Source: Heterodontus francisci
Taxonomy: Eukaryota
Reading direction: 5' to 3'
Assembly: GCF_036365525.1 (NCBI RefSeq)
Contig: NC_090397.1
Location: 67,833,781-67,897,780 of the forward strand
DNA length: 64,000 nt
In this document: positions 599-64,000 of the stretch, piece after piece
Numbering within the stretch: the first letter of the stretch is position 1
Layout of the letters: every line of letters begins with the position of its first letter
The notes under the pieces: generated by a model
Databases searched by the model: none
The model's input: only the letters and a program-made list of their open reading frames with translations
Told to the model about the DNA's origin: nothing
Translations under genes and position numbers: made by a program

Positions 599-1518
599 AT
601 CTAGGTATTCTGAAACACAATGGAATCAATGTTGATGTATGATGCTGACATTTGTTATGAAATTGGAAAACTGGATGACACCTGCAAAGACTACGGTCAG
701 CTGCAAATACCACATTCCCAATGAGACTTATAGACACAATAACCACAGTAATGAAGTCTAGAAGGCTAACACTTGCTGGCCATTCCTTCAGAACAAAATC
801 TTAAACAACTCAGTTAGATCACCCCCTAATCTTCTACGCAAAAATTCAATTGTCCATAATCTTTATTTTACAATTAACTACCTCCTTGAAGCTTTGACTA
901 CCCTTTGATTGATTAATAAGAAATATTTATGCATTCTCACAGCATGTTCATTACAATGTTTCTCTGTGAATGCATCTTTCTGTGCGTTGAGTAGTTAGAA
1001 TTATTGCATGTTAATTAAATAATTATTTTCTTTCAATATGCTGTGATCTTTAAAATGAAGTTAGGAAAATGAGGAGGTTGGAGATCAGGTAGTAATCTGC
1101 TTTGAATTAAAAAATAAACTGTAAATGCTGGAAATCTGAAATACAAACAGGAAATGCTGGAAATGCACAGCAGGCTCAGCATCTGCAAAGAGAAAAGACA
1201 AGTTAAAGTTTAGGATGATGATCCTTTACCAAAACTGGAAACTGGTAGGTCAGTGAGCCCCTCAATGGAGGATGTCCAACCTTTCAGAGCTGCATAAAAA
1301 TCAGTGACTGAGCCACATATAATTACATACAAATGCAAGTCCCAATATACATCAGTGCAAGCCCCCAACAAAACATTCCCAAGGCCTTCCACACACACAA
1401 AGTGCAAGACTTCCCAAGACACGCAAGAAGCAAGACTCCTGAAAAATTCTGAGACCACATGCAAACGAAAACATGGAGGAACAAGGGCAACAGGCGCATG
1501 GGAACACCACCACCTGCA
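599..1518. repeat. Copy A of an inverted duplication (partner 45049-46422), in RBM17 intron 6
   Basis: Collinear reverse-complement matches, e.g. CTAGGTATTCTGAA, CCTCCTTGAAGCTTTGACT, GAGGAGGTTGGAGATCAGGTAGTAATCTGCTTTGAA, CCCAATATACATCAGTGCAAGCCC. Confidence 0.92.
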
Positions 1519-1619
1519 GCACCTGTACTGTAGGAAATATATCCTTGTAAAATGTTTAACCAACATCAGAGAAAGATATTTGATAATAAATTGAGTTTAG
1601 TGTTATTTGTTGTACATAC

Positions 1620-1676
1620 GTTCTTTGTCTTTTTCAACAAGTGACGAAGGTGGGGCAATTGCTGCTCCTCCCATAC
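1620..1676 (-). CDS. RBM17: RBM17 coding exon, (S)MGGAAIAPPSSLVEKDKE; G-patch and UHM exons lie beyond the left window edge
   Basis: 57 nt; TTTTAG| acceptor and C|GTATGT donor. Matches SPF45 SMGGAAIAPP. Confidence 0.96.
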
Positions 1677-1807
1677 CTAAAATACAACAAAATAAAGAAC
1701 TTCAACTGATGAAAACCTTTGTTTGAACAGAAATAAATGGCGATCTCTGAGTGAAAAGAAATTAAAACAGTCACAACACCATGCTGCAAAGAACAAGATG
1801 CACCTAC

Positions 1808-1911
1808 TTCTTTTTCGCCTTTCTTTTTCTCTTTCATCATCATCTTCATCCGAGTCTGGATCTGGTCGTCTCGCGAACCCACTAGGTTGTTCATGTCTCT
1901 CCTTCCTTCGC
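1808..1911 (-). CDS. RBM17: RBM17 coding exon, RRKERHEQPSGFARRPDPDSDEDDDEREKERRKR(S)
   Basis: 104 nt; CCAG| acceptor and A|GTAGGT donor. Frame is continuous with both flanking exons; matches SPF45 GFARRPDPDSDED. Confidence 0.97.
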
Positions 1912-3404
1912 CTGGATATTTTAATAGAGAAATTGTTACACTTTGACAAGTATACATTGTCTTATTCAAGAATGCAGTAGTGCTGGGTCTAAAGTGGCAT
2001 TATTTAGGGTGAATCATTGAATTACATAGAATCCGCAGCATAGAAACAGCCTATTTGGCCAAACTCATCGATGCCGGTGTTTATGCTCCACACGAGCTTC
2101 CCCCCCCATTTAATTACCTCTTTCTACCCTGGCACCGTATCCCACTATTCCCTACTCCCTCATGCGTCAATCTGCCTCTTCATTGTACTAATGGTTTGTG
2201 CTTCAACCAATCCACGTGGCAGCGAGTTACACTTTCATACAATCCTCTACTGAAAGAAATTCCTTCCAAATTCTTGATTTGATGCAGAAATGGCTGCCTT
2301 AGATTTATACCCCCTTGTTCTGAATTAGTGGAAACAATTTCATCACATCCACCCTATTGAATGCATTCATAATGCTCTACCAGGTCCTCTCAGTCTTCAC
2401 TTTCCACAGAGAGTCCCAGTCTGCTCAGTCTTCCCTAATAGTTACATCCTCTCAATTCTGCTAACATCCTTGTAAATCTTCTTTGCATGTTCTCCAATAT
2501 CCAGCACTTGCAGGAACACTTTTTGTTTCATTGTGGTTAGCCCTTTCTAATTCTGGCCTCACTTGCTTCTTGCTCAGTCCCCGTAAAGTCAAGCTAGAAT
2601 GTTTTCAAAAAAATTGATTTGCTATTTAATATAAAGCAAGTTGCCTTACTCAGCTAAAAAGAAACAGCTGCAAATACAAAATAAAAACAGAGTATGCTGG
2701 AATACACAACAGGTGTACAACTGAAAAGACAAGTTAATGTTTCAGGTGGAGATCTTCTGCCAGAATTTGATTTTGACAAAGGATCTATGTTCTATTCCAG
2801 AAAGCCAGTTGGTGAAGGATAGAACTGCAGTCAATCTTTACACTCATTTATATTTATTTAGAGTTACACATTACAAGTACATACCTCCTAACCCAATAAC
2901 CAGTTTTAAAGTGGCTCAAGTGAATCACTAGTTAATGCCGATCACCTGCATACAATTAACAATCTACACCAATATCCTTATGGACCTGCTGTGTATTTCC
3001 ATCACTGTCTGTTTTTATGACTGAACTCAGCCATTTAAAATGCTGCCCTGTATTTTTTTTCTCTCTAGAAAAACAGAAGGACGAGGGGCAAATAATAGAG
3101 ATCTTTTAAAAATTATTAAAGGGTTTGTAGGGTAGGCATAGAGATGTTTCCACTCGTGGGGGAGATCAAAGCTACCGGGGAGGGGGGGTGCATGAATATA
3201 AGGCAGTCACGAATAAATTCAATAAGGAATTCAAAAGAAACTTCGTTATCCAGGGAGTGTAGAAAGTGGAACTCGCTCACACAAAGAGTAGTTGAAGCAA
3301 ATAGTATAGATGCAGTTAAGGGGAAGCTAGATAAGCACATAAGGGAGAAAGGAATAGAAGGATATGCTGATCGGGTTTTCTTTTTTATTTATTTTTATTT
3401 ATTT

Positions 3405-6208: not shown

Positions 6209-6375
6209 TTTTCCCTTTCTTCAATTTCTTTCTGTCGCTCCAGCTCACGCTGTCGTTGTCTGTCCTCACGCTGCCGTTTTACAACTTTCTCATAGTCATT
6301 GGGGTACATGGGGTCATATTCATCAGCTAGTGGGATCAAGACCTCTCCTGTAGAGAATCCACTTGGTACAGGATC
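6209..6375 (-). CDS. RBM17: RBM17 coding exon, DPVPSGFSTGEVLIPLADEYDPMYPNDYEKVVKRQREDRQRQRELERQKEIEERE(K)
   Basis: Contains the SF45 motif EYDPxxPNDYE. 167 nt; TTTCAAG| acceptor and AA|GTGAGT donor (phase 2). Confidence 0.98.
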
Positions 6376-8270: not shown

Positions 8271-8336
8271 TCTCCAGTGAATCAGTCCTGGCCTCGGTGT
8301 TCCCTCAAGCTCTTTAGACTTGAGAGAGATTCTTAC

Positions 8337-8453: not shown

Positions 8454-9416
8454 CTATAAACAAAGGTAGACACGAATTAGAACCAGTAGCACTTTCCAGC
8501 AAAACAAAGTCTTCCCACTGAAAAGATGGAAAATACTGAAAAGATAGAAAATGTACAGATCTTTAATAAATCATCCCGCCACAATTCATCTGACAGTAAC
8601 ATCTCTCTTGCTGATTAACACTATCGCAGACAAAAACTATAAACTGTGTGAATAACCAAATAGTGATAAAAGTCAATTAGAGTGCTTTATCAAAAAATAG
8701 CACATCATTTTGCTTTTTAAAATGATTTCCTATTCTCTTTATCTGCTCACCACATTATGCACCTTTGTTCTGCCATAAAGTGGCACCAGCGACCTACTTC
8801 CAGTCATCAACTGACCTCCAGGATTTGTACTCAAGCCAACTCTTCCTGAATTACTCAGCAATTTTCTCTCGCTCTCTATAGCAAAGTGCTGGATGAAGAC
8901 CTGACACACTCCTCTTCTTAGGCAGTCCCTCGGGAATGAGGATGACTTTCTTCCACTCCAGGGTTGTGAGTCCTTAGGTGACTGAATAGTCCAATTCTGG
9001 ATCCGCACACTCTGCCACAGGTGGCAGAAACTGGAAGCATCACGAGCCACAAAGGCGCAGGATTCAGTTCATACCTGTTTATTGCAATCTCACCCATGAC
9101 GCCATATCAAGTGTTGAGCAAATATTTGGCACAAGACGAAGACAAAAATCCAGAACAAGATTCAACACATTTTAGTGGCTGATGTCAAAGCTAAATGCAG
9201 AAACAGTTCCCTACTCAGACAAGCCAGATGCACAACACAGCAAGATCGAAGAAAATACCTCTTAGGGAGCGTTGTCTAACAGTTGTACGTTGTACCATTC
9301 AGTACAAAAATGTGAATGACAGATTAAAAGTCTCCTTTATTTAGCAACATTTGATAGGAGACAGCTATACTTCGAACCTGACTTGAAAGCAAAGAGCTGA
9401 AAAATAAAGGTATTAC

Positions 9417-9539
9417 CTTTGCTTGTGTAAGTGTCGCTTTCTTCACTTGCAGCTGAGACTGAAGGAGTTTGAAGTTTTTTGACCAGCCCTCCGTCTTTGA
9501 GTCACTGGTCTCCACACCCAAGTCATCATAAAGAGACAT
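9417..9539 (-). CDS. RBM17: RBM17 (splicing factor 45) first coding exon, MSLYDDLGVETSDSKTEGWSKNFKLLQSQLQVKKATLTQAK
   Basis: Near-identical to the vertebrate SPF45 N-terminus. 123 coding nt; acceptor TGTAG| 18 nt upstream of the ATG (exon starts 9557); donor AAG|GTAATA. Confidence 0.98.
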
Positions 9540-9595
9540 TGTGTCTTCTCTTTACAGCTACAACAAACAGAAAATAAAATCACAGCTTAATCAAG

Positions 9596-11743
9596 GAGAT
9601 GGAAGGTGGGGGGGGGGGGGGGGGAGAGAGATGGAAGGGGGGGGGGGGAGATGGAAGGGGGGGGGGAGAGATGGAAGGGGGGGGGAGAGATGGAAGGGGG
9701 GGGAGAGATGGAAGGGGGGGGGGGGAGAGATGGAAGGGGGGGGGGAGAGATGGAAGGGGGGGGGGGAGAGATGGAAGGGGGGGGGGAGAGATGGAAGGGG
9801 GGGGGGGAGAGATGGAAGGGGGGGGGAGAGATGGAAAGGGGGGGGGAGAGATGGAAGGGGGGGGGGAGAGATGGAAGGGGGGGGGGGAGAGATGGAAGGG
9901 GGGGGGGAGAGATGGAAGGGGGGGGGGAGAGATGGAAGGGGGGGGGGGAGAGATGGAAGGGGGGGGGGGAGAGATGGAAGGGGGGGGGGGAGAGATGGAA
10001 GGGGGGGGGGAGAGATGGAAGGGGGGGGGAGAGATGGAAGGGGGGGGGAGAGATGGAAGGGGGGGGGAGAGATGGAAGGGGGGGGGGGGAGAGATGGAAG
10101 GGGGGGGGGGGAGAGATGGAAGGGGGGGGGGGAGAGATGGAAGGGGGGGGGGGAGAGATGGAAGGGGGGGGGGAGAGATGGAAGGGGGGGGGGAGAGATG
10201 GAAGGGGGGGGGGAGAGATGGAAGGGGGGGGGAGAGATGGAAGGGGGGGGGGAGAGATGGAAGGGGGGGGGGAGAGATGGAAGGGGGGGGGGAGAGATGG
10301 AAGGGGGGGGGGAGAGATGGAAGGGGGGGGGGAGAGATGGAAGGGGGGGGGGAGAGATGGAAGGGGGGGGGGAGAGATGGAAGGGGGGGGGGAGAGATGG
10401 AAGGGGGGGGGGAGAGATGGAAGGGGGGGGGAGAGATGGAAGGGGGGGGGAGAGATGGAAGGGGGGGGGGAGAGATGGAAGGGGGGGGGGAGAGATGGAA
10501 GGGGGGGGGGAGAGATGGAAGGGGGGGGGGAGAGATGGAAGGGGGGGGGGAGAGATGGAAGGGGGGGGGGAGAGATGGAAGGGGGGGGGGAGAGATGGAA
10601 GGGGGGGGGAGAGATGGAAGGGGGGGGGAGAGATGGAAGGGGGGGGGAGAGATGGAAGGGGGGGGGGAGAGATGGAAGGGGGGGGGGAGAGATGGAAGGG
10701 GGGGGGGAGAGATGGAAGGGGGGGGGGGAGAGATGGAAGGGGGGGGGGAGAGATGGAAGGGGGGGGGAGAGATGGAAGGGGGGGGGGAGAGATGGAAGGG
10801 GGGGGAGGAGAGATGGAAGGGGGGGGAGAGATGGAAGGGGGGGGAGAGATGGAAGGGGGGGGAGAGAGATGGAAGGGGGGGGGGAGAGATGGAAGGGGGG
10901 GGGGAGAGATGGAAGGGGGGGGAGAGAGATGGAAGGGGGGGGAGAGATGGAAGGGGGGGGAGAGATGGAAGGGGGGGGGGGGAGAGATGGAAGGGGGGGG
11001 GAGAGATGGAAGGGGGGGGGGGGAGAGATGGAAGGGGGGGGGGAGAGATGGAAGGGGGGGGGGAGAGATGGAAGGGGGGGGAGAGAGATGGAAGGGGGGG
11101 GGGAGAGATGGAAGGGGGGGGGGGAGAGATGGAAGGGGGGGGGGGGAGAGATGGAAGGGGGGGGAGAGAGATGGAAGGGGGGGAGAGAGATGGAAGGGGG
11201 GGGGGAGAGATGGAAGGGGGGGGGGAGAGATGGAAGGGGGGGGGGAGAGATGGAAGGGGGGGGAGAGAGATGGAAGGGGGGGGGGAGAGATGGAAGGGGG
11301 GGGGGGGAGAGATGGAAGGGGGGGGGGGAGAGATGGAAGGGGGGGGGGGAGAGATGGAAGGGGGGGGGGAGAGATGGAAGGGGGGGGAGAGATGGAAGGG
11401 GGGGGAGAGATGGAAGGGGGGGGGGAGAGATGGAAGGGGGGGGAGAGATGGAAGGGGGGGGAGAGATGGAAGGGGGGGGGGAGAGATGGAAGGGGGGGGG
11501 AGAGATGGAAGGGGGGGGGGAGAGATGGAAGGGGGGGGGGAGAGATGGAAGGGGGGGGGGAAGAGATGGAAGGGGGGGGGGGAGAGATGGAAGGGGGGGG
11601 GGAGAGATGGAAGGGGGGGGGGGAGAGATGGAAGGGGGGGGGGGAGAGATGGAAGGGGGGGGGGGAGAGATGGAAGGGGGGGGGGAGAGATGGAAGGGGG
11701 GGGGGAGAGATGGAAGGGGGGGGGAGAGATGGAAGGGGGGGGG
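9596..11743 (+). repeat. Tandem minisatellite (GAGAGATGGAA-Gn), unit about 20 bp, roughly 105-110 copies
   Basis: Directly visible. Variation is almost entirely in G-run length; no C on the plus strand. Confidence 0.99.
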
Positions 11744-11789
11744 TTTCTCAGCCTCGCTTCCCAATGAACAGAATCGGAATTGAGGCCTG

Positions 11790-12140
11790 AAGCCCGGCAT
11801 TAAATTATACAGCGGTGCGGAGTGTCCCTCTGAATCCCCGGCTCCTTACCTCCCCGGGCCCGGCCTCTCCCCCGGAGCCGCTCTTTCTGGGTGTTTTGCT
11901 CCGCGAGCGCCCTCAGCGAGGCGGCCGATCACCGGAAGCCGGAGCAGTCCGTCCGCATCAGGCCTCCGGGGGGAAACAAGCAGCCGCCGCAGAATCAGTC
12001 CCCCCCCCCCCCCTGGGCCTCCCTCATCTCCAACCCATTTGGGCTCTCCAATTCTGTTTTTGTTTGAGCCACCTCGTTGGATTACATTGTGCTGTCTGGT
12101 CACTCATCCATGCCTCATCCGTCCACCACGTCAGTGAGTG
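11790..12140. promoter_or_regulatory. CpG-rich, probably bidirectional promoter shared by RBM17 and ECHDC3
   Basis: CpG-dense non-repeat segment between divergent genes. ETS/GABP-type ACCGGAAGC at 11931-11939, C-run 12000-12013, CCAAT 12048-12052. Candidate plus-strand donor CA|GTGAGT at 12134. Confidence 0.7.
11850..11990 (-). other. RBM17: RBM17 non-coding exon 1 (5' UTR); 5' boundary uncertain
   Basis: CpG-rich segment ending on the minus strand in a consensus donor GAG|GTAAGG (GT at 11849-11848). It is the nearest strong donor upstream of the exon-2 acceptor at 9559-9558. Confidence 0.75.
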
Positions 12141-12317
12141 TACCTGGCAATTCGACTGTGGTAGTCATCACAGTCAAATCCTGCCTTCATCCCCACACCT
12201 GCACTTATAGCAGGAGTTACTTGTCGCCACCAGGAGTTGGAACTGAGTCTATTTTGCCTTCTCTAAACCAGGGGCTTCTCAGAGTCCAAATGTTCCACCA
12301 GCAACACCTCCCAGCTA

Positions 12318-20230: not shown

Positions 20231-20273
20231 CGGGGTTCCGAAGAAGGGTCACTGACCCGAAACGTTAACTCTG
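20231..20273 (+). ncRNA. Minimal type-I hammerhead ribozyme motif (Penelope-derived), best-preserved copy
   Basis: Helix I CGGGGTT/AACTCTG; core CCGAAGA; helix II GGGTC-ACT-GACCC; GAAA-CG-TT with palindromic AACGTT. Predicted cleavage after 20266. Confidence 0.7.
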
Positions 20274-25951: not shown

Positions 25952-26085
25952 GTTCTGATGAAGGGTCACAGATCTGAAGCGTTAACTCTGTTTCTCTCTA
26001 CACAGATGTTGCCAGACCTGCTGAGTATTTCCGGCACGTTCTGTTCTCATTTCAGAGTTCCAGCATCTGCAGTCATTTACTCTTA
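25952..26085 (+). mobile_element. Short Penelope 3'-end unit with hammerhead motif, nested in a SINE
   Basis: GTT-CTGATGA-A-GGGTC-ACA-GATCT-GAAG-CG-TT-AACT followed by the conserved CAGATG..CAGCATCTG tail. It interrupts the SINE at 25.7-26.2 kb. Confidence 0.8.
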
Positions 26086-26599
26086 TATTATCATCATTAC
26101 TGATACTAGTTTTTTAAAATATAAATGACCAGCCACCACGGTGGGATTTAAATTCGCGCCACCAGATCATTAATCGCAGTCTCTGCATTGCCAGTCCTAT
26201 AACATAACCACTATGCTACTGTTGGCATCTAAAACACTAAACAGAATTTTGGAGGAAGGCAGACGCACTTCAGCTGCAGCCGAGTGTGCAGGATGGAAAG
26301 CTGCTCCCAGGCCACTGGCAATCCCAGGAGATGTGCGACAGTGGCTTGAGTTTTCCCCCTTCTTCCTCTGTTGGGGAAGGACTTGAGCTGCGTTTACAGC
26401 ACTCAAGCAGAGATTGGAAAATCGGTACAGTAAGGGAGATCAAATCAATGCATCACCTTTACTCTGGTACCATCCTTTACAATGATGGGAGATGGTGGTA
26501 GAGTGGTAATGTCACTGGACTAGTAATCTAGAGACCCAGGCTAATACTCTGGGGACATGGGTTCAAATCCTACCATGGCAGCTGGTGGAACTTTAATTA

Positions 26600-27679: not shown

Positions 27680-28310
27680 CTCCGCTCAGTCCGAAATCAT
27701 GACCCCGAGCTTCCTGTTGATTGCCATTTCAACTCACCACTCTGCTCTCATGTCCACATTTCTGTCCTTGGCCTGCTGCACTGTTCCAGTGAATATCAAC
27801 ACAAGCTTGAGGAACAGGACCTCATCTTTCGATTATGCACTCTACAGCCTGCCGGACTCAACATTGAGTTCAACAATTTCAGAGCACGACTGGCCTTTTT
27901 AAAATTATTTTAAACCATGTGCCTGCCTTAAACTTGTTTTTTCATGTTGTGCTTTTGGACACAGCTGCTCATTATTCTGTCATTGACACTCTCTCTGGAC
28001 TAATGCTTTGTCTTTCACCACGAACATCAACACTTTCTTTGCCTTTATCCCATGACATCTTTGTTATTTAATCTCTCCTGCCCTCTACCCTATCACACAC
28101 CTTCCCTTTTGTTCTCTTCCCCACCAGCCCTACCTTCACTTGCTTTAAACCTAATACATTTCTAACCTTTGCCAGTTCTGATGAAAGGTCACAGACCTGA
28201 AATGTTATCTCTGCTTCTCTCTCCACAGATGCTGCCAGACCTGCTGAGTATTTCCAGCACTTTTTGTTTTTGTTTCAGATTTCCAGCATCTGCAGTATTT
28301 TGCTTTTATA
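27680..28310 (+). mobile_element. Penelope-like element 3' part: GIY-YIG C-terminus, 3' UTR and hammerhead (28174-28210)
   Basis: Translates QHKLEEQDLIFRLCTLQPAGLNIEFNNFRA, then CAGTT-CTGATGA-A-AGGTC-ACA-GACCT-GAAA-TG-TT. Confidence 0.85.
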
Positions 28311-29280
28311 TAATCTTTCCCTTCCCGAACCCAGGAATGCAGAGATCAATTGTAGTACGCTTACTACTGCTCCCAGCTGAGGCTAACAAATGCAGCACAG
28401 ACCAGGGATCAAAGCTGGAAATTTCTGGTTTATATGGCTTAATAACACGCCACATAGTCTGTTTACTCACTAAGCCATGGGGCAGCCACTTCAATATCCC
28501 GTTGTCTTTAAAGCAAGATTTAATCTTATTAATAACCGTGTTGCTCATGTCTTCCTGACTCTCCTCTTCTTGCTCTCCCTGCGTGAAAGAATGGGCTTCC
28601 CAACACTCAGTATTTCCCATGACGACATGGTCAAAGCCAGTGATTATGGAATAGTTGTGATGAGCCTGTGTAATTACGAACGTCACAGTGCACTATGTGG
28701 AAGGATTAATTATGCATCCACATCTCTAAACAAATGCTCATTTTGTTTAGTACATAAACATGTATTATCTATGCATTTCATTGAATCATAGAATGGTTAC
28801 AGCACAGAAGGAGGCATTTAGCTCATCAAGCCATGACGGTTCTCTGCAATTTAGCTAGTCCCACTTCCCCACCCTTTCCCTGTAACCCTACAAATATCTT
28901 CCCTTCAGGTGTTTATCCAATTCCCTTTGGAAAGCCAACATTGAACTTGTCTCCACCACCATCTCGGGCAATACATTCCAAACCCTTATTACTCGCTGCC
29001 TCTTTTGCCAATCACCTTAAATAGGGGCCCTCTGGTTCCTGACCCTTCCACCAATGGGAACAGTTTCTCCCTATCTACTCTGTCCAGACTCTTCATGATT
29101 TTGAGCACCTCTATTAAATCTCCTCTCAACCTTCTCTTCTCTAGAGAACAACCCCAGCTTCTCCAATCTATCCATGTAACTGAAGTCCATCATCCCTGGA
29201 ACCATTCTCGTGAATCTTTTCTGCACCCTCTCTAAAGCCTTCACATCCTTCTAAAATGCAGTACCCAAAAAGGACACAAT

Positions 29281-32854: not shown

Positions 32855-33117
32855 ATCTGTGTATGTGTGTGTGTATGTGCATGTATGTGTATATGCACGT
32901 GTGCATGCACATTTGTGTGTGCGTACGCACGTTTGTGTGTATGCATATCTGTGTGTGTGCATGTGTACATGCATGTGTGAGCGTGTATATGCGCATGTGT
33001 GTACATGTATACAACTGCATGTATACATGTGCATGTGTGTGCATGCACCCTTGTGTGTACGTGTTTGTGTGTGCATGGATATGTATGCATGTGTGTGCCT
33101 ATGATTGTGTGTGCGCA
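32855..33117. repeat. Compound (TG/CA/TA) alternating purine-pyrimidine microsatellite
   Basis: Directly visible. Confidence 0.95.
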
Positions 33118-37900: not shown

Positions 37901-38574
37901 ATGGGCACCAGGCATCCTGCAGTACCTGACCCAGTAGTCATTTATTATAGGTGGGTCCAGACGGTAGGTATCCGCTGATTATTCAACCATAACAGCCAAG
38001 CTCATTCTTTTCTCAACTTGTGTCCACACATTCCCCACCCTTGAGGCAGGGGTACAATATATTGATAGGGCTGTGTACTGTGACCAATATTTCCCATTCT
38101 CACTCTAAGACCAGTTTAGTGTACTTCCCTCACCCAGAGCCCAGATAATATCATCTAATTCAGGAGAGTCCAGGATTCAAAGTGGGACTTTCCTGACCTG
38201 CACACCCTACCTCCTCACGAGATAAACTTGATAAGCCAATGAGAGAGTAAAAGTTGTTTTTAATCACAATTAAACAGATGCCAGGTGCAGAAGGTTTGAT
38301 GTGAAAAGAGTTCTATTATGATGAATTGGGTGCTGCTTTCAACCTCTCAACTCCAGGAATTTTACATTTGATGCTGTATTGAAAGTCGCTCTTTAGATTG
38401 CAAATTCCCTGAGTGCAGTATGAACTCCCTTTCACAATGGACCTTCAATCCATCTACACCTCCATCCCACACCACCACCACCCCCCCCACCCCCCACCCC
38501 CCACCAAGGCAACCTATGATCTTTTCTACTTCTCATTGAATTGTAACCAAATTAGTTTCCATCCATCACCCTCC

Positions 38575-39679
38575 CCGTCTGACCAAACTTGATTTCACCC
38601 CGAACAACTTTTCCTTCAACTCGACTCACTTCCCCCAAATAAAAGGTGTTGTTAAGGGAACCCACATGAGACCTAGTTATAAATAAAATCAGATAGTGCT
38701 GGAAATACTCAGCAGGTCTGGCAACATCTGTGGTGAGAGAAACAGAGTTAACATTTCAGGTCGATGACCTTTCATCAGAACCAGGAAAAGTTAGAAATGT
38801 AACAGGTTTTAAACAAGTACAGAGGCAGGGAAAGGAGGGAGGGAGGGGAGAACAAAAGGGAAGGTCCGTGATAAGGTGGAAGACAGGAGAGATTGTATGG
38901 CAAAAGGGATGATGGTGCAAGGCAAAAAGAGATGCCAAGTAAAGAAACAAAAGCTGCCATCTGAAAACAAAAAAAAAACAGAGAGAGAAAGAAATGGGGG
39001 CAGAGATTATGATCTGAAATTGTTGAACTCAATATTGAGCTGGGAAAGCTATAAAGTGCCTAATTGAAAGATGAGGTGCCGTTCCTCGAGCTTGCGTTGA
39101 GATTTATGGATGAAATTTTCCAGTTTGTGGCAAAAGCAGGAAGCAGCACCAATACAGTCATCAATGTACCATATAAAGAGGTGAAGGAAGGGGCCTGAGT
39201 AGGACTGGAACAAGGAATTTTTCACATTTCCCACGAAGAAGCAGGCAGAGCTCTGATAGCAACAAATATTATTTGGAGTAAGTGAGTGGAGTTAAAGGAG
39301 AATAAAAGCAAAATACTGCAGATGCTGGAAATCTGAAATAAAAACAAAAAGTGCTGGAAATACTCAGCAGGTCTGGCAGCATCTGTGGAAAGAGAAGCAA
39401 AGTTAACTTTTCAGGTCTGTGACCTTTCATCAGAACTGGCAAAGGTTAGAAAAGAATCAGGTTCTAAGCAAGTGAAGGGGAGGGGGTGGGGGAAAGAACA
39501 AAGGGGAAGGTGTTTGATGGGGCAGAGGGTGATGAAATAACAAAGCTGTCCTGGGACAAACGCAAAGCATGTGTTAATGCTAATAGTGAAAAACAAAGCA
39601 TTAGTCCAGGGAGAGTGTTAATAGCGGAATAATGAGCAGCTACATGACTACATGAAAAGCAGGCACATGGTTAAAAAAT
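38575..39679 (-). mobile_element. Rearranged Penelope-like element fragments with two hammerheads (38743-38785 and 39401-39438)
   Basis: Plus-strand NNFSFNSTHFPQIKGV..GTHM.PSY (RT) abuts minus-strand WYIDDCIGAAS and RKLEERHLIFQLGTL. Two CTGATGA-A-AGGTC-NNN-GACCT-GAAA motifs. Confidence 0.85.
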
Positions 39680-40883
39680 TCTTCTTCTTCTTTGGCCTCC
39701 TTGTCTCAAGAGACAATGGGTAAGCGCCTGGAGGTGGTCAGTGGTGTGTGGAGCAGTGCCTGGAGTGGCTATAAAGGCCAATTCTAGAGTGACAGACTCT
39801 TCCACAGGTGCTGCAGAAAAATGTGTTTGTCGGGGCTGTTACACAGTTGGCTCGCTCCTTGTGCCTCTGTCTTTTTTCCTGCCAACTGCTAAGTCTCTTC
39901 GATTCACCACACTTTAGCCCCGCCTTTATGGCTGCCCGCCAGCTCTGGCGAACGCTGGCAACTGACTCCCACAACTTGTGATCAATGTCACAGGACTTCA
40001 TGTCGCGTTTGCAGACGTCTTTAAAGCGGAGACATGGACGGCCGGTGGGTCTGATACCAGTGGCGAGCTCGCTGTACACTGTGTCTTTGGGGATCCTGCC
40101 ATCTTCCATGCGGCTCACATGACCAAGCCATCTCAAGCGCCGCTGACTCAGTAGTGTGTATAAGCTGGGGATGTTGGCCGCCTCGAGGACCTCTGTGTTG
40201 GAGATGCGGTCCTGCCACCTGATGCCAAGGATTCTCCGGAGGCAGCGAAGATGGAATGAATTGAGACGTCGCTCTTGGCTGACATACGTTGACCAGGCCT
40301 TGCTGCCATAGAGCAAGGTACTGAGGACACAGGCCTGATACACTCGGACTTTTGTGTTCCGTGTCAGTGCGCCATTTTCCCACACTCTCTTGGCCAGTCT
40401 GGACATAACAGTAGAAGCCTTTCACATGCGCTTGTTCATTTCTGCATCTAGAGACAGGTTACTGGTGATAGTTGAGCCTAGGTAGCTGAATTCTTGAACC
40501 ACTTCCAGAGCGTGGTCGCCAATATTGATGGATGGAGCATTTCTGACGTCCTGCCCCATGATGTTTGTTTTCTTGAGGCTGATGGTTAGGCCAAATTCAT
40601 TGCAGGCAGCCGCAAACCTGTCGATGAGACTCTGCAGGCACTCTTCAGTGTGAGATGTTAATGCAGCATCGTCAGCAAAGAGGAGTTCCCTGATGAGGAC
40701 TTTCCGTACTTTGGACTTCGCTCTTAGACGGGCAAGGTTGAACAACCTGCCCCCTGATCTTGTGTGGAGGAAGATTCCTTCTTCAGAGGACTTGAACGCA
40801 TGTGAGAGCAGCAGGGAGAAGAAAATCCCAAAAAGTGTGGGTGCGAGAACACAGCCCTGTTTCACGCCACTCAGGATAGGAAA
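39680..40883 (-). mobile_element. Young 5'-truncated RTE-clade LINE with 11-bp TSD
   Basis: GVKQGCVLAPTLF, LLFADDAAL, RLRWLGHV.RM and CHSRIGLYSH motifs; (GAA)n tail; TSD GGTTAAAAAAT at 39669-39679 and 40884-40894. Confidence 0.95.
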
Positions 40884-41210
40884 GGTTAAAAAATAATATA
40901 TTAAAAAAAGGCCAGTCACGCTCTGAAGTTATTGAACTCAATGTTCAGTCTGAAAGGCTGTAGAGTGCCTAATAGAAAGATCAGGTGCTGCTCCTCGAGC
41001 TTGCGTTGATGTTCACTGGTACACATAGAGTTAAAGGAGAAGTTGTTCAATGTGAGAACAAGTTTAACCAGGCTGAGGAAGGTGGTGATGGATAGAACTG
41101 GTTGGGCCTTGGTCCAAGGAAGAAACAAAGAGCCCTCAGATCGTCCTGGTGGGGAATAGAACAGTAGAGAGATTGGACGTCCATGGTGAAAAGGAGATGG
41201 TTAAGCCGGA
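40884..41210 (-). mobile_element. Continuation of the Penelope-like element interrupted by the RTE
   Basis: LVKLVLTLNNFSFNS joined to QRKLEEQHLIFLLGTLQPFRLNIEFNNFRA*, implying an internal deletion. Confidence 0.85.
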
Positions 41211-41329
41211 AAACTGTTATAAACAGTTAAAAACAATGAGGCCTAGCTCGGCTTATTTTTTGTAAGATACATTGTTTGTTCCGGTCTTACTCAGGTCCCC
41301 TCCCTGACCTCTTCAGATTCACTAAAATG

Positions 41330-45048: not shown

Positions 45049-46422
45049 TTGCAGGTGGTGGGGTTCCCATGCATCAGCTGCCCTTATCCTTCTGGTTTTT
45101 GTTTGCTTAGGGTCTCAGAATTTTTAAATATGGGGTTTTAGAATTTGTGCGTCAGGGGTCTTGCTTCTTGTGTCTATGGGGAAGTCGTACACTTTAAGTA
45201 TGTGCGGAGGGCCTTGGACATGTTTTGTTGAGGGCTTGCACTGATGTATATTGGGACTTATATTTGTATGTGACTCACTGACTGATTTTTATGCAGTTTT
45301 GAAAGGTTGGACATCCTTCCAGTGAGGGGTTCACTGACCTATCAGTTTCCAGTTTTGATAAAGGATCATCCTCCTAAACATTAACTTGTCTTTTCTCTTT
45401 GCAAATGCTGATGGGCCTGCTGTGCATTTCCAGCATTTCCTGTTTATATTTCAGATTTCCAGCATTTACAGTTTATTTTTATTTCAAAGCAGATTACTAC
45501 CTGATCTCCAACCTCCTCATGTTCCTAACTTCTTTTTAAAGGTCATTTATGTCATATTGAGAGAAAATAATTGTGTCTAATTAAAAGATATAATTAATAA
45601 TTCAAACAGTTCAACACACAGAAAGATTTATTCAAAGGGAAACCTTCTAATGAACAAGCTATGGGACCATTCAAATAGCTCCTTCTGATAATCAAAGGGG
45701 AGTCAAAGCTTCAAGGAGGCAGTTAATTGTAAAATAGAGATTATGGACAACTGAATGTTTACAAAGCAGATTAGGGGGTGATCTGACTGAATTGTTTTAA
45801 GATGATTAAAGGATCTGATTGGGTCAATAGAGAGATACTTTTCCTTTGATAGGGCAGTCCAGAACAAGGAGTATAACTTAAAATTAGAGCTAGGATATTC
45901 AAGGATGATGTTTCAGATAAAGTGGCGTGGAAATCTAGAATTCCGCTGTGGGTCAAATGAAAAGTTCAAATCAGTGATTGTTAGATTTTTACTAGGTAAG
46001 AGTATGAAGGGATAGGGAACCAAAGCAGGTAACTGGAGTTCAGATACAGATCAAGCATGATCTAATTGAATGGTGAAACAGACTCGAGGGGTTGAATGGC
46101 CTCCTCCTGTATGGTGGTAATTCCTCTTTTATTTTATTTCCTGTACATGTTGAGCATTGTACTTAATTCTAGTCCTCTCTCTCTCTCTTTGTTTCCATGT
46201 TCCCAGAATAATAGTTCTGAAACCAGTTCCTCTGCTCTGAAGGAATGACCAGCTTCATTACTGTTGTTTTTGCAGCTAAGTCTAATTGGGAATGCAGTCT
46301 TTCCAGTTGACACTATTTCTGTGCAGGCACCATCGAGTTTCTTTTCCTGTTTCATAGCAAATGACCAAGTGTCATCAACTATATATCAACACTGATTCCA
46401 CTGTGCTTCAGAATACCTAGAT
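45049..46422. repeat. Copy B of the inverted duplication (partner 599-1518), with about 430 bp extra, mostly a CR1 3' tail
   Basis: Same blocks as copy A, in reverse order and opposite orientation. Confidence 0.92.
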
Positions 46423-48335: not shown

Positions 48336-48373
48336 AAAATTTTAAAAAACAGCTGGAATCATTTGTTTGTCAC

Positions 48374-51440: not shown

Positions 51441-51829
51441 ACAAGGAGGAATAGGAGGACAGTTAATGGAGGTGGGGCGGTGGTTGAAGACATGGTCCCA
51501 TTGGTATGTTTTAAGGAAGCTTTTGAAGGTGAGGAACTAGGGAGGTAAAATAGGAAGGTAAGGAGTAGCCTAGTGTTAGAGAAGTGAGGGTGTGGTAAGC
51601 ATGTAAAGGTGGGGGAGAACACCTGGTAGAGTGGGTGTAAGTCATAGAGGGATTTAGAAGAACAAGAATTTTAAAGTCAACCCATGGAGCACCGGGAGCT
51701 AGTGGAGCTCAATGAGGTGGGTTAATTAGAGAAGACAGGGGTAATGCAAGTGTGGTAAAAACCAAGGGTGATATAAATGTGGAAGAAGACAGGAATTATG
51801 GGAATCTGGATATGAGAGTGTCAGTGCGA

Positions 51830-52280
51830 TGGGAGTGTGGGAGGGAGAGAGTGGGGGTGGGAGTGAGGGAGAGAGTGAGGGTGGGAGTGAGGGTGGGAGT
51901 GAGGGTGGGAGTGAGGGAGCGAGTGAGGGAGCGAGTGAAGGAGAGTGTGAGGGAGAGAGTGGGGGTGGGAGTGAGGGAGCGAGTGAGGGAGCGAGTGGAG
52001 GTGGGAGTAAGGGAGAGAGTGAGGGAGAGTGTGAGGGTGGGAGTGAGGGTGGGAGTGAGGGAGCGAGTGGAGGTGGGAGTAAGGGAGAGAGTGGGGGTGG
52101 GAGTGAGGGAGAGAGTGAGGGAGAGTGTGAGGGTGGGAGTGAGGGTGGGAGCGAGTGAAGGAGCGAGTGAAGGAGCGAGTGAGGGAGCGAGTGGAGGTGG
52201 GAGTAAGGGAGAGAGTGGGGATGGGAGTGGAGGTGGGAGTGAGGGAGAGAGTGGGGGTGGGAGTATGAGTGAAGGGAGTA
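51830..52280 (+). repeat. Purine-rich compound minisatellite (GAGTGAGGGTGG / GAGTGAGGGAGA 12-mers)
   Basis: Directly visible 6/12-bp periodicity. Confidence 0.95.
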
Positions 52281-52989
52281 TGGAAAATGGGTGCAGATAA
52301 GAGACAGAGAAAAGACATGGGTGATGGTAGTGTGACAACAAATCCAAATGGGACTGGATCATTTTGTGCTCCTCAGTAAGATCTGCCAAAGTACAAATAC
52401 TGTTTGTATAAGTATAATGTCTCTATTGTAGAAGAGTTTCCCCAATAGTTTTTCATCATAGATTTAGTAAATATATTTGAAAATAATGAATCAAAAATTA
52501 AATGTTAGGTTCTTGTATGCAAATTTTCACCATGAATCTCCTGCAGGCATTGCCTCTCTACTAGGATGCAATTGCATTGCTCGCCTTTGCAGTATCTCAC
52601 CCAAGGTGGCTATTACAGGAATCCAGTATAAACGTGGATGGGCTATTCAATCATGTGAGACATCATGGATGGCATCTAGATGTGTTGGGGTTGCTGTATA
52701 ATGATTGGAAGAGGGAGCTCTGGATAATTTTCCCTTCATTAACCTATGAATACTTATGCAACTCTAGCAGCCAATATTCCTGCTAAATTGTACAAACGTG
52801 CAGCAACCCGAAAGATCCGCCCACAGGCCATGCAAACATTTTTAAAGGGGCCACGCAGTTAAATAAATAGCTCGTGCATTCCAAAAAGATTAGAGGGAAC
52901 GTTGCTGGCAGTGATATGGAACCCTGGCTACATCAGTGAATACAGTACAGTTCAGGATCAAATCTGGGACCTTTCTAATGTGTGCAATT

Positions 52990-53395: not shown

Positions 53396-56300
53396 TAACT
53401 CTTTACTGTCTCATTGGGGGAGTGAAATGATGTGTGATGAGGGGTCTGGGGCTGACAATATGCTCCTTTTATTTTCTCTAGATAATGTTCTATTTCCGAA
53501 GAACTCAGTGAAATCGGAGAGTAATGCTAAATAATGTACCGGACATTGGACAAGGGCAAGATGTCTGAGAGTAATAACTTTTCTCTCCTAACAAAATGTT
53601 TTCAAAAAGAAATTCAAGTCACCGAAACAGAGGGATCATGGCAACTCTTAGTCTGCGGCTGCCTGGAGTGTGGTTGGCGATGTGACTCACTGCTTGTTTC
53701 TGATAGTGTTCTGTTATTTGCTTAGAAAGGATGCAGTTATAGGAGACATCTAGTCATCACCTGTTCAAGTCACCACACTACCAGGTGGTAAGTCTCCTTC
53801 AAGTTATCCATTCAGTATTTTTACCTAATTAAGCAGGTCTGCCACCTAACTAATCTTTAACCCCAATCTGTAAATTATACATGCTGACTCAAGGCATTTT
53901 CTTCTTAAACTGAAATTGTCCTTTACTATAGCTCTGTGAAAAACAGGGAAAGATGATGCTTTCATACATATGTCTCGTCAATACTGACACATTATATTAA
54001 CTAGTCTGTCCTCTCCACAGACCCTGTCTGACCGGCTGAGTGTTTCCAACTTGTTCTGCTCCTGTTTCAGATTTCCAGCATCTGCAGTTTTTAGCTTTTT
54101 GTCTTCATGTCACTAAGTTTACACGAAGAAGAGGCTGTTTTGAGGGAAGGAACTTCAATCTAACCTGTCTCATGCAGAAAACATACTGTGCTGAGTCTTG
54201 GAAGTAATTCTTTGCCTGTGAAGTACTTTGGGATGTGATAATGTGTTACATAAATGCAAGTCTTTCTTTATAGAACAACAATGTAGCCCCTCTTCACTTG
54301 TACTGTATCTCTCTGCTAATGCAACCAGTATCTTATTTGCTTTGCACAAAGGCAGATTTTTGTGCATCACCCATACTCACACACCCTGAACTGGAAAAGG
54401 TTCCGACCTGTATGAATTAACCTGAAATTGTCTGTGGGCCTCTCCTTTGGCCTGCTGCATAGTGACTTTTCTTCCATATGGCAAAGTTATGCATCATGCA
54501 GCAGACAGTGGTTACAGCACAGAAGGAGGCCATTGGCCCATCATGTCCATTTGGCTCTTTGGAAGAGCTACTCAGCTAGTCCCACTCCCCTGCATTTTCC
54601 CTGTAGCCCTGCAAATTTTTTTACTTCAGATAATTATCCAATTTCCTTTTGAAAACTACGATTGACTCTGCCTCCATCACACTCTCAGGCAGTGCATTCC
54701 AAATCCTAACCACAGCTGCGTAAAAAAGTTTTTCCTTATGTTGCCTCCGATTCTTTTGCCAATCACCTTACTTTTAAAAATTATTTCAAAGGATGTGGGC
54801 ATCGCTGGCCAGGCCAGCATTAATTGCCCACACCTAATTGCCCCTGAGAAGATGGTGATAAGCCGCCTTCTTGAACCGCTGCAGTCCATGTGGGGTAGGT
54901 ATACCCACAGTGCTGTTAGGAAGGGAGTTCCACATTTTTGACCCAGTGACAGTGAAGGAACAGTGATATGGTTCTAAGTCAGGATGGTGTGTGGCTTGGA
55001 GGGGAACTTGTAGGTGGTGGTGTTCCCATGCTTCTGCTGCCCTTGTCCTTCCAGGTGGTAGAGGTCGCGGGTTTGGAAGATACTGTCAAAGGAGCCTTGG
55101 TGAGTTGCTGCAGTGCATCTTGTATGTGGTGCACACTACTGCCACTGTGCATCAGTGGTGCAGGGAGTGAATGTTGAAGGTGGTGGATGAGATGCCAATC
55201 AAGCGGGCTGCTTTGTCCTTGGATGGTGTTAAGCTTCTTGAGTATTGTTGGAGCTGCACTCATCTGGGCAAGTGGAGAGTATTCCATTGCACTCCTGCCT
55301 TGTAGATAGTGGACAGGCTTTGGGTGAGTCAGGAGATGATTTACTTGCCGCAGAATTCCTAGCCTCTGACCTGCTCTTATAGCCACAGTACTTACATGGC
55401 TGGTCCTGTTCTTGACCGTTCCGCCAATGGGAGCAGTTTCTCCCTATCTATTCTGTCCAGACCCCTAATGTTTTTTACACCTCTAACAAATATCCTCTCA
55501 ACCTTTTCTTCTCTAAGGAGAACAGCCCCAGCTTCTGCAATCAATCCTTGAAACTGAAGTCCCTCATCCCTGGCACCATTTTCATAATCTTTTCTGCACC
55601 CTCTCTAATGTGTTCACATCCTTCCAAAAAATGTGGTTCCCAGAATTGGACTTAACATTTTTGCAGGGCTGTGGAGAAACACCTTGCCTGGGTAGTCCAA
55701 ACACTGGAATCTTTGCTTGACTGTACTAATGATGTGCTCCCTGTTAATTCCAGTTTTAGATGTATGCTTTATTGTATTTACATTTCGCTGCTGCTCCGCA
55801 GTTTTTCAATGGGGTTATCAATCAAGATTGTAGAGGGTAGCCTGGTCTCCCAGCAACCAGTCAGCCAGCAATCCATCGAATCCAATCGATGAACCTTCAA
55901 ATAATGCAGACACCATCAACTTCCACACAAAAACAATAACAGCTCGTGTTTATAATAGCACCTTTAACATCGTAAAATATTCCAATCTGCTTCACTGAAA
56001 ATGAAAATTGATACCGAACCAAAAGAATGAGATATTAGGACAGGTGACCAAAAGCTTGGTCAAACAGGTAGGTTTTAAGGAACATCTTAAAGGAGGTGAG
56101 AGAGGTGATGAGACAGAGAGGTTTAGCCAGTGAATTCCAGAGTTTGGGCCTAGACAGCTGCAGGTATTAATGGATACTTCCTGGATGGTGAGCATTAACT
56201 TGCATTAGAATGGTTCTATAGTGAAACAACACCTGCTCATCAATTGAATGGAAGCCCTTTCTGTTGCTGTAAACCATGGAGTTGCTGTGAAGAGTCCTAC

Positions 56301-61924: not shown

Positions 61925-62370
61925 GAGAAAGTCTTGCATTTACATAGCGCCTTTCATGACGGCAGGATGTCCCAGAGCACTTTACAGCCCATGAAAGTAG
62001 TTTTGAAATGTCGTCACTGTTTTAGGAAACGCGGCAGCCAATTTGCAGCAAGCTCCCACAAACAGCAATGCAATCACCTGATGATCTGTTTCTCTGATGG
62101 TTGAGGGATAAATATTGGTCAGGGTGCCGGGGAGAACTTCCCTGCTCTTCAAAGTAGCGCCTTGGGATCTTTTACATCCACCTGAGAGAGAAGACAGAGC
62201 CTCGGTTTAACATTTCATCTGAAAGACAGCACCTCTGACAGTGTAGCTCTCCCTCAGTATGGCACTGGAGTGTCAGCTTTGATTTTTGTGCTCAAGTCCT
62301 GGAGTGGGACTTGAACCCACAACCCTTCTGACTCTGGGTGGGAGTGCTACGAACTGAGCCAGGGCTGACA
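61925..62370 (-). mobile_element. Deu-domain SINE
   Basis: Full-length match to the other copies. Confidence 0.88.
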
Positions 62371-62511
62371 TGAAAATAATTTAGGCCAGAAGGTGGTTGA
62401 TATAGTCTTTCCTGGAACAAGGGAGCTTGTGATGTAGAGCAGGCCTGGGTTGGGTTCAACCTTGAAGAATACCCTATTGGCCTACTTGCATTGGTGTGCT
62501 ATTATTGGTGT

Positions 62512-62573
62512 CTTCTTTGGCCTCCTTATCTCGAGAGACAATGGGTAAGCGCCTGGAGGTGGTCAGTGTACTG
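62512..62573 (-). mobile_element. About 60-bp 3' stub of the same RTE family as 39680-40883, with 12-bp TSD
   Basis: CTTCTTTGGCCTCCTTATCTCGAGAGACAATGGGTAAGCGCCTGGAGGTGGTCAGTG; TSD TATTATTGGTGT at 62500-62511 and 62574-62585. Confidence 0.9.
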
Positions 62574-63875
62574 TATTATTGGTGTACTGTGTTGTTTACC
62601 CATGCAGTTTTACTGACTGTTTCATCTTAGTGTGCCTTATTAGTTTGCTTTGTTTTTCGATTTGTTGGCACGTTTTATCATATACGAGGGTGACGTGTTG
62701 CACCTATTGTTGTATCATATAATGGTGAATCACAATGGTATGCCATGTTGACACATCATGTTAGTTTGCCTGATATGTTGGTGTACATTTTTAAGGTGTG
62801 TTTTGTTAATACATCTTGTCAGTCTGCATTTACGTATGTGCTAACAGTGTACCTTTATCACTGTTAAAAAAAAAAAATCATTCCAAACCCAGAATTCTGA
62901 AATTGGGCTTTGATAATGAAACCATGCCTCATTGGTGAGGGATATCATATTAACAAGCTCCCCTGATGGTTATATTCTCCAGATGCAGTTCTGTACTCAA
63001 TGCCCAGTCTGTGTTGAGTTATCTGATATCAGTCCGGGTGATGATGGGCCTCTGCATTCCTGGGCTAGGGAGGAGGAAAAACCAGCTAATGTTCCTGCGG
63101 CAGATCACCCGATTGGAATCCTTGCTGGAAGGTGCAAGCATCTGGTTGTTAATGAGGGCAGGGCTAGGCTTGGTGCTGAGGCAATAGTCTTCCAGCATTC
63201 ACTGTCTGGTTTCAGACATAAATAATGTTTACTTGGGTGAGGTATGGGAGGGCTGCCAGAACAAAACCTCACATTGAGTCACTGCCGAGGGTGAGAAAAG
63301 GCAGAAAACAGGTACAAACAATACAGACATTGACATTGCCATTACAATTATTTGTATGAAGTGGCTTTCTCTTCGCTAAGGTCCTGAAGGAGGAAAAAAA
63401 TTTGCGGGGTTATGGGGAAAGGGCGAGGGGTGCTACTCCCTGTCTAGCCTTGTTCTGTGCTGTAACCATTCTATGATTCTATTCTATTTCTGTGTAAGCT
63501 GTTGCTTTATCATTAGATGTCAACATCAAGAGAAATAGCTGCTTGCATTAGTTCATTTGGTTGAGAGACACAAAGTCTTGCTTTAAGTAAGATGGGAGGA
63601 GGTTTGTGTGCAGTATAGACCTGTTGGGCCGAGTGGCCTGCTTCTGTGATGTAAATACTATATAATACTAGGTTCTGCTGAGGTTTAAGGGTGCATTCAC
63701 ATTACATCCACAGTGTCATGACAAAGCTTTTTAACTTCACATTGATGCAGTATTGACAGTGTAAATCTGGCATCAGGGTCTGATCTAACACCACAACTAG
63801 GCTGAATGAGACAGCCTGGAGGATTCAGTCTTCTGCTGCTTCCATTTGGAGTCAGTTTGAGCTCTTAGCATAATA

Positions 63876-64000
63876 ATGAAAGCAAAATACTACAGATGCT
63901 GGAAACCTGAAATAAAAACAGAAAGTGCTGGAAATACTCAGCTGGTCAGGCAGCATCTGTGGAGAGAGAAACAGAGTTGACGTCTGTGACCTTTCATCAG
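63876..64000 (-). mobile_element. Penelope 3'-end unit with a hammerhead that has lost its GAAA segment; runs off the window
   Basis: CTGATGA-A-AGGTC-ACA-GAC[deletion]GTCAACTCTG plus the conserved tail. Confidence 0.8.

What the first reader, a model, noticed from the sequence alone, without database searches (positions are those of the whole stretch)
1200..64000. Dispersed family of about 130-200-bp hammerhead-bearing Penelope end units with covarying helix II
Seen: related motifs near 1205(-), 2735(-), 20231(+), 25952(+), 28174(+), 36915(+), 38743(-), 39401(-), 45350(+) and 63970(-). Helix II varies in a compensatory way: AGGTC/GACCT, GGGTC/GACCC, GGGTC/GATCT and AGGAT/ATCCT, with loops ACA, ACT, ATC and CATC. 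Three copies remain attached to GIY-YIG/RT coding remnants; the rest stand alone, one nested in a SINE. Inference: the ribozyme-to-tail unit may spread as a non-autonomous, SINE- or retrozyme-like RNA mobilised by Penelope enzymes. The density here is about one per 6-7 kb, suggesting a very large genomic family.
Basis: partly seen in the sequence, partly recalled or inferred. Interest (0 to 1): 0.7.

Follow-up and report, generated by a model that had tools for sequence, protein, structure and literature searches.

The report
Penelope stubs that mark RNA start
These repeats are the short, hammerhead-bearing ends of a very abundant Penelope-like jumping gene, a known kind; about half begin at one fixed spot that likely marks the capped start of the element's RNA, so they are likely by-products of its copying rather than a separate ribozyme element.

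Summary
The motifs are real: 9 of 10 listed copies pass a profile search, and one is borderline. They are the pseudo-LTR ends (minimal type-I hammerhead plus 'tail') of a Neptune/Nematis-type Penelope-like element, whose 924-aa RT+GIY-YIG frame is intact elsewhere in the genome. A spread sample gives one unit per 14 kb (about 4x10^5), less than the window suggests. Covariation is one pair (A-U/G-U/G-C); the AGGAT/ATCCT 'variant' is one decayed, duplicated insertion. Solos have their own target duplications and an excess G before the junction. They form no lineage of their own, and no cleavage-bounded tandem monomers were seen, so a SINE master or retrozyme is not supported. Best reading: run-off cDNAs from a capped RNA starting at helix I, primed at two internal sites about 96 and 133 nt downstream (18 of 18 head-to-head pairs use one each). 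The RNA start is inferred, not measured. Scattered Penelope hammerheads are published (2014), and this scan noted the fixed start in other genomes before.

The parts
27680..28311 (+). 5'-truncated Penelope-like copy: C-terminal GIY-YIG remnant (27680-27886), 3' UTR, hammerhead core from 28178, unit with tail
   Evidence: tblastn 83% to aa 856-924 of an intact copy; profile 153.8 bits
20235..20371 (+). Solo unit of the youngest subfamily (core CCGAAGA, helix II GGGTC/GACCC), starts at -3 with a G before it, long (+133) end, target duplication of about 9-11 bp, inside a LINE fragment
   Evidence: 96.5% to the young element; duplication
25952..26088 (+). Solo unit starting at -3, nested in a dispersed short repeat, imperfect target duplication
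38680..39302 (-). Older copy: unit with short end (38680-38781), UTR, endonuclease C-terminus (39010-39099), RT fragment (39106-39302); its RT continues at 41028-41216
39301..41027 (-). 5'-truncated copy inserted into the RT of the previous element (14-bp duplication); unit 39301-39439; its UTR is split by a later LINE insertion; endonuclease C-terminus 40915-41024
63870..64000 (-). Solo unit cut by the window edge; starts at -3 with a G before it; deletion in the GAAA box
   Evidence: neighbouring stretch L253
45349..45477 (+). Decayed unit with broken core; one of two copies of an old local inverted duplication
1113..1238 (-). Decayed unit, duplicate of 45349-45477 (shared flanks 798-1518)
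2666..2761 (-). Heavily decayed unit
   Evidence: 26.4 bits, E=1e-7
2982..3044 (+).
   Evidence: 23.1 bits
36913..37018 (+). Possible very old solo unit; not statistically secure
   Evidence: 5.9 bits, E=0.21
53994..54099 (+).
   Evidence: 57 bits

Best explanation
The repeats are 3' ends of a Penelope-like retrotransposon, and the stand-alone 100-140-bp copies are likely run-off cDNAs, made when the element's enzyme primes just downstream of the likely capped 5' end of its own RNA. Shown: the unit is the pLTR of an intact 3.29-kb RT+GIY-YIG element; about half of all copies start at -7..+9 of the hammerhead core and the rest trail off up to kilobases upstream; 3' ends fall at about +96 or +133; solos are separate insertions with target duplications. 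Inferred: transcription starts at A(-4)/G(-3) in an initiator-like YCAGTT, so helix I is the 5' end of the mRNA; the protein nicks both target strands and starts reverse transcription at the two internal sites, as shown in vitro for the anole Poseidon element; priming at the first pLTR of the RNA runs off the capped end after 100-135 nt and leaves a solo, or a head-to-head pair when both ends are extended. Longer copies would come from RNAs that run through the pLTR from upstream. Ribozyme cleavage does not define these insertions, and most genomic copies are likely inert.
For: Intact 924-aa frames, tandem unit 3,292 bp, hammerhead in each pLTR; Pfam RVT_1 and GIY-YIG, both below curated cut-off. 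Boundary: 49 of 100 consecutive exact-match young copies at -7..+9, about 50-fold the per-base rate at -300..-8; 31 of 54 among single insertions; 10 of 30 in an older subfamily; 28 of 63 in the spread sample. Genome-wide exact counts fall from 30,994 (match from -2) to 28,152 (-3), about 23,474 (-4) and 18,466 (-5) (+43+45, 43). G precedes the -4 junction in 2,499 of about 5,008 non-templated cases (50%; about 63% after removing copies that really extend upstream, estimated from 30+30 sampled loci) against 28% expected, and the -3 junction in 2,474 of about 4,678 (53%) against 30%. Long truncations show G in 10 of 36. An extra G at full-length L1/SVA 5' ends is ascribed to cap copying (PMC3287187, PMC11702581, passages). 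Target duplications of 9 bp or more in 16 of 31 solos against 1 of 906 mismatched pairs. 18 of 18 head-to-head pairs combine one short and one long 3' end. Same haplotypes in short and long copies.
Against: No RNA 5' end was measured: only assembled contigs were available. In the 100-copy sample alone the G excess is not significant (11 of 23 vs 10 of 36, p=0.16). About a third of sampled G-junction loci are inversion junctions, where microhomology can supply the G, and terminal transferase activity at any template end could also add it. The same pyrimidine-rich CAG reads as a splice acceptor, and in D. virilis an intron ends at helix I (PMC4209133). 15 of 31 solos show no duplication of 9 bp or more. 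The lineage test has little power on 90 near-identical bases.
Confidence: 0.62

Rival explanations
1. The RNA 5' end at helix I is made by processing (exonuclease trimming up to the folded or protein-bound hammerhead, or a splicing-related cut) or reverse transcriptase stalls there; no promoter is needed at that point.
For: The boundary coincides with the first pair of helix I; the upstream tract looks like a 3' splice site and an older family keeps a pyrimidine tract plus CAG there; an intron ends at helix I in D. virilis (PMC4209133).
Against: G excess at the junction; target duplications abut the unit with no upstream exon; no peak at the would-be branch point (1 of 100 at -14); only 2 of 16 long copies stop at the second pLTR, against a sequence-intrinsic stall.
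Confidence: 0.2
2. The 100-135-nt unit is a self-propagating non-autonomous element: solo copies are transcribed from an internal promoter and recopied in trans by Penelope protein, like a SINE.
For: Discrete length, own target duplications, about half of all copies. Penelope promoters are internal in D. virilis (PMC2377424, passages). One 8.4-kb segment that starts at a LINE 5' end and ends at a solo's +96 site is copied into another LINE. pLTRs mobilise host DNA in trans in A. vaga (PMC3846280, passages).
Against: No solo-specific lineage: nearest-neighbour same-class 0.506 vs 0.510 +/- 0.026 shuffled, 188 copies; the five commonest short haplotypes all occur in long copies. 7 of 29 tailed solos match 6-10 bases of the ORF-leading sequence. 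Among 82 plain solos only two pairs share a flank. The 8.4-kb case has no target duplication and could be LINE-made or recombinational.
Confidence: 0.13
3. The unit is a non-LTR retrozyme: monomers are released by hammerhead cleavage, circularised and reinserted.
For: Type-I hammerhead and Penelope origin, as reported for animal retrozymes (10.64898/2026.07.22.740005; PMC7229834).
Against: 0 of 100 young copies start at +20..+34 around the cut site at +29; no palindromic joints at the cut site in any fetched locus; no arrays of cleavage-bounded monomers among 75 clusters; the young subfamily has C at core position 4. 3 of 30 older copies start at +25..+31, all inversion junctions.
Confidence: 0.03
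4. Plain random 5' truncation or deletion remnants.
For: 45 of 100 young copies do trail off at random upstream points; papers call single motifs 'probably truncated PLEs' (PMC4209133).
Against: About 50-fold peak over 17 bases; 40% of exact matches lost over three bases genome-wide; intact target duplications.
Confidence: 0.02

Closest known systems
Minimal type-I hammerheads in pLTRs of metazoan Penelope-like elements (Cervera and de la Pena 2014, PMC4209133; text parts 1-2 of 4 read)
   Same: 4-bp helix I, extra nucleotide before helix II, palindromic ACGU in place of helix III, thousands of single scattered motifs, subfamilies with compensatory changes.
   Different: That text calls singles probably truncated PLEs and gives no fixed 5' boundary; helix II here is 5 bp; the youngest subfamily has C at core position 4.
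Anole Poseidon element PAc (Frangieh et al. 2024, PMC11167929; text parts 1-2 of 4 read)
   Same: Internal start of reverse transcription at two sites that bound the optional tail, extension of both target strands, no RNA ends at the hammerhead cut site.
   Different: Here a Neptune/Nematis-type element, priming sites lie in the 5' UTR before the ORF, evidence is genomic only; the part read does not describe a fixed 5' start of short copies.
EN+ Penelope-like elements, Neptune/Nematis clades (Craig et al. 2021, PMC8557442; passages)
   Same: RT plus C-terminal GIY-YIG, Cys-rich linker motif, partial tandems, inverted 5'-truncated arms, 30-40-bp tail at one end.
   Different: Clade not placed by a tree here.
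Animal non-LTR retrozymes (PMC7229834, passages; bioRxiv 10.64898/2026.07.22.740005, parts 1-3 of 5)
   Same: Type-I hammerhead, non-coding, derived from pLTRs, dispersed monomers exist.
   Different: Retrozymes are defined by tandem units each with a hammerhead and by circular RNA; here units are solos or head-to-head pairs bounded by the presumed RNA start and priming sites.
Solo pLTRs and trans-mobilised host DNA in Adineta vaga (PMC3846280; passages)
   Same: Solo pLTRs, Inr-like motif in the pLTR, host DNA moved with pLTR signals.
   Different: There several solos lack target duplications and are ascribed to recombination or deletion; here half show clear duplications and a fixed start.

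Membership tests
EN+ Penelope-like element | Single ORF with RT and C-terminal GIY-YIG | tested here: met
   924-aa open frames; RVT_1 E=8e-6 and GIY-YIG E=9e-4, both under curated cut-offs
EN+ Penelope-like element | Partial tandems (pLTRs), inverted 5'-truncated arms, optional 30-40-bp tail | tested here: met
Neptune/Nematis clade | Zn-finger-like Cys motif between RT and EN | tested here: met
   CxxxxCxxC just before the GIY-YIG domain; feature from PMC8557442 passage
Neptune/Nematis clade | Phylogenetic placement of RT | not tested
   No tree with named references was built
Minimal type-I hammerhead | Core boxes, helices I and II, palindromic 15.1-16.1 | tested here: met
   met by the older subfamily; Rfam gives no hammerhead hit
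Minimal type-I hammerhead | Canonical U4 in CUGANGA | tested here: inconclusive
   U in older copies, C in the youngest, ORF-intact subfamily; effect on cleavage unknown
Minimal type-I hammerhead | Self-cleavage as a dimer | not testable with these tools
   Needs in vitro assay; related motifs cleave weakly (PMC4209133)
Non-LTR retrozyme | Tandem units each with a hammerhead | tested here: not met
   None among 75 clusters of 100 young copies; whole genome not scanned for rare arrays
Non-LTR retrozyme | Ends set by ribozyme cleavage; circular RNA | tested here: not met
   0 of 100 start at +20..+34; circles not testable with contigs
SINE-like non-autonomous element | Discrete length with own target duplications | tested here: met
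SINE-like non-autonomous element | Own lineage or master copies distinct from the autonomous partner | tested here: not met
   low power
SINE-like non-autonomous element | Independent transcription of solo copies | not testable with these tools
   Only contigs available

The most novel reading that the evidence does not exclude
The hammerhead is the capped first 37 nt of the Penelope mRNA, and the 100-135-nt unit holds both an internal promoter and the enzyme's loading site. Each of some 200,000 solo 'strong-stop' copies is then a potential mini-element that can be recopied in trans and can carry kilobases of upstream host DNA with it, as the one 8.4-kb case suggests.
Probability: 0.2. Interest if true: 0.68.

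Novelty: new member of a known kind. Interest (0 to 1): 0.4.

Why it matters
The family itself is an expected kind. Its value is as a record of the poorly understood Penelope copying cycle: tens of thousands of near-identical junctions point to a single-base RNA start, two priming sites and paired priming from both target ends, in a genome that still holds intact elements. That makes three questions directly testable: where the RNA starts, what a hammerhead at the very 5' end of the mRNA does if cleavage leaves no trace in insertions, and whether solo ends move host DNA.

Tried and rejected
Rfam scan: no hammerhead family hit at E<=10. RNA evidence: 22 runs listed, all contigs, most only guessed to be RNA; 4 laid, unit present, no start, end or consistent splice joint can be read. 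AGGAT/ATCCT helix with intact core: 0 genome-wide. Cleavage-site starts and palindromic joints at the cut site: none. Spliced-in upstream exon: rejected because target duplications abut the unit. Solo lineage: null; an earlier run collapsed identical long copies and its solo/long counts were discarded, only its pair counts are used. Covariation statistic: 20 hand-picked copies give 89.6% paired cells, 1 of 500 shuffles as high, but the shuffle ignores relatedness and only one pair has a repeated double change; one search had a mis-indexed structure and is void; R-scape was not available and no covariance model was built. The Fisher test used slightly wrong counts and is replaced. Shared-flank search among 82 plain solos: one local duplicate pair and one candidate transduction. 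Lunse et al. 2017 on Penelope hammerhead variants could not be read, so whether a C at position 4 is a known active variant is open. Supplements of the bioRxiv preprint, which include one cartilaginous fish, were not seen and may list this family. No repeat library (Repbase, Dfam) was on hand. Sequence look-up in earlier findings gave nothing.
Full report
Coordinates below are relative to the first base of the hammerhead core (C3 = 0). Helix I pairs -4..-1 with +29..+32, helix II pairs +8..+12 with +16..+20, and cleavage would leave a 3' product starting at +29.

1. Observation. A profile of the 144-base unit finds 11 hits in the window and none on reversed sequence. Nine of the ten listed copies pass at E<=1e-7; 36915 reaches only E=0.21; two unlisted pieces lie at 53994 and 2982. 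Rfam has no matching hammerhead model, but the motif fits the minimal type-I hammerhead described in Penelope pLTRs (PMC4209133, parts 1-2 of 4 read). Three window copies keep a recognisable motif under a relaxed descriptor. Coding remnants beside 28174, 38743 and 39401 are confirmed by tblastn. The 39401 copy sits inside the RT of the 38743 element with a 14-bp duplication. Copies 1205 and 45350 share 769 bp with flanks at 80%, and the upstream flank matched no other fetched locus, so they are one old insertion counted twice.

2. Covariation is thinner than claimed. Among 271 distinct copies the outer pair of helix II is G-C 147, A-T 90, G-T 25 and A-C 2; the other four pairs have no common alternative (sets enriched for the young subfamily; in the 42 spread-sample and window copies A-T 17, G-C 15, G-T 7). 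This is one compensated change between subfamilies, through a wobble. AGGAT/ATCCT with an intact core has 0 matches in the genome. A pair count on 20 hand-picked copies beats letter shuffles (1 of 500) but cannot correct for relatedness.

3. The parent. The genome holds many copies of a 924-aa open frame. One tandem has a 3,292-bp period with the unit in each pLTR. Pfam gives RVT_1 and GIY-YIG, both below curated cut-offs. A Cys-rich linker motif points to the Neptune or Nematis clade (PMC8557442, passages); no tree was built. The surrounding repeats look like those of cartilaginous fishes (recalled, not tested). In 92 evenly spaced 10-kb loci on contigs C1-C35 there are 63 hits, one per 14 kb, about 421,000 genome-wide; the window is over twice as dense.

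4. The boundary test. I took the first 100 exact matches on C1 to a 41-mer at +48..+88, a choice blind to upstream sequence. 49 start at -7..+9 (36 at -7..0), 45 start between -14 and -4154, 6 at +16..+46, and none at +20..+34. Per base the peak is about 50 times the rate at -300..-8. The 100 matches form 75 clusters; among 54 single insertions 31 are in the peak, two of them one duplicated locus. An older subfamily gives 10 of 30 and the spread sample 28 of 63. Exact genome-wide counts are 30,994 from -2, 28,152 from -3, about 23,474 from -4, 18,466 from -5 and 13,992 from -14 (+43+45, 43, 48; the -4 figure includes a pattern two bases shorter, and the -14 figure also loses subfamily variants). 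Solos are true insertions: 16 of 31 have a duplication of 9 bp or more, against 1 of 906 mismatched pairs.

5. What sets the boundary. G precedes the -4 junction in 2,499 of about 5,008 cases; 13 of 30 sampled A/T cases and 1 of 30 G cases are really extended copies, which raises the share to about 63%, against 28% expected. At -3 the share is 53% against 30%. Long truncations show 10 of 36. In L1 and SVA an extra G at full-length 5' ends is ascribed to copying of the cap (PMC3287187 and PMC11702581, passages). The site YCAGTT resembles an initiator (consensus recalled), and Penelope promoters lie in the pLTR (PMC2377424, PMC3846280, passages). Against this: about a third of the G loci are inversion junctions; the 100-copy sample alone is not significant (p=0.16); only 2 of 16 long copies stop at their 5' pLTR, which argues against a plain stall but also requires a second, read-through RNA class; and no RNA end could be measured.

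6. The 3' ends. 50 of 100 copies end at +91..+108 and 47 at +131..+141; all 18 head-to-head pairs combine one of each (4e-6 if independent). This matches the two internal priming sites and two-strand extension shown in vitro for the anole element (PMC11167929, parts 1-2 of 4), where ribozyme cleavage was not needed for insertion and no reads ended at the cut site.

7. Is it a separate element? The commonest haplotype has 37 long and 41 short copies, the next 10 and 6; the nearest-neighbour test on 188 copies is 0.506 against 0.510 shuffled; four rare short haplotypes of 3 copies each were not seen among long copies. 7 of 29 tailed solos match 6-10 bases of the sequence leading to the ORF. No tandem monomer arrays appear in the sample, so the retrozyme definition (PMC7229834, passages; bioRxiv 10.64898/2026.07.22.740005, parts 1-3 of 5) is not met. 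One case points the other way: an 8.4-kb segment, 98% identical between two C1 loci, begins at the 5' end of a LINE, ends at a solo's short priming site and interrupts another LINE without a duplication. It may be a Penelope-primed transduction, a LINE product or recombination.

8. Mechanism. Shown: identity, boundaries, duplications, paired ends, shared haplotypes. Inferred: capped start at helix I, priming at the first pLTR, run-off and insertion. The youngest subfamily has C at core position 4, and four upstream bases let it fold into a rival hairpin (-9.7 against -7.8 kcal/mol for the hammerhead-like fold), whereas an RNA starting at -4 folds with helices I and II. This is a prediction only.

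9. Novelty. Scattered single minimal hammerheads from Penelope elements are in print since 2014, and a 2026 preprint ties animal retrozymes to pLTRs. I found no description of a fixed, cap-marked start of solo pLTRs in searches or in the passages read; Lunse et al. 2017, the preprint's supplements and repeat libraries were not seen. This scan has recorded the same fixed start in other genomes (unchecked notes, read after my reading was set down). Verdict: new member of a known kind with a testable mechanistic signal; interest 0.4.

Noticed in passing
L353-L356 (G000:C1, near 26.02-26.03 Mb and 27.66-27.67 Mb); L342, L344: An 8.4-kb segment starting at a LINE 5' end and ending at a solo unit's +96 site is duplicated at 98% into another LINE, with no target duplication; candidate transduction primed on a solo end.
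   Followed up: partly
L083:4903-4943 and window 20235-20270: Youngest, ORF-intact subfamily has CCGAAGA instead of CUGAUGA and a predicted rival hairpin with the four bases upstream of the presumed start.
   Followed up: partly
window 38425-41216: Nest of Penelope copies: one inserted into the RT of another with a 14-bp duplication, later split by an RTE-like LINE (family name recalled).
   Followed up: yes
window 798-1518 and 45050-45803: Old local inverted duplication, 80% identical, 44 kb apart.
   Followed up: yes
L112:5075-5182 and 9309-9439: An older related family with a different helix II and a pyrimidine tract plus CAG right before the unit, like a splice acceptor.
   Followed up: no
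window 9559-11790: About 2.2-kb G-rich tandem array of a 20-bp unit.
   Followed up: no
window 293-406: Long near-perfect inverted repeat of 26-bp arms (chance miRNA-model hit).
   Followed up: no
window 32856-33090 and 51716-52422: TG/CA-rich microsatellite and a purine-rich 12-bp repeat array.
   Followed up: no
window 6286-6326: Stretch that reads like a coding exon of a host gene on the minus strand (seen); the units may be intronic.
   Followed up: no
L328: A unit starting at -3 joined directly to the element's own ORF sequence, suggesting a template jump or internal deletion.
   Followed up: no
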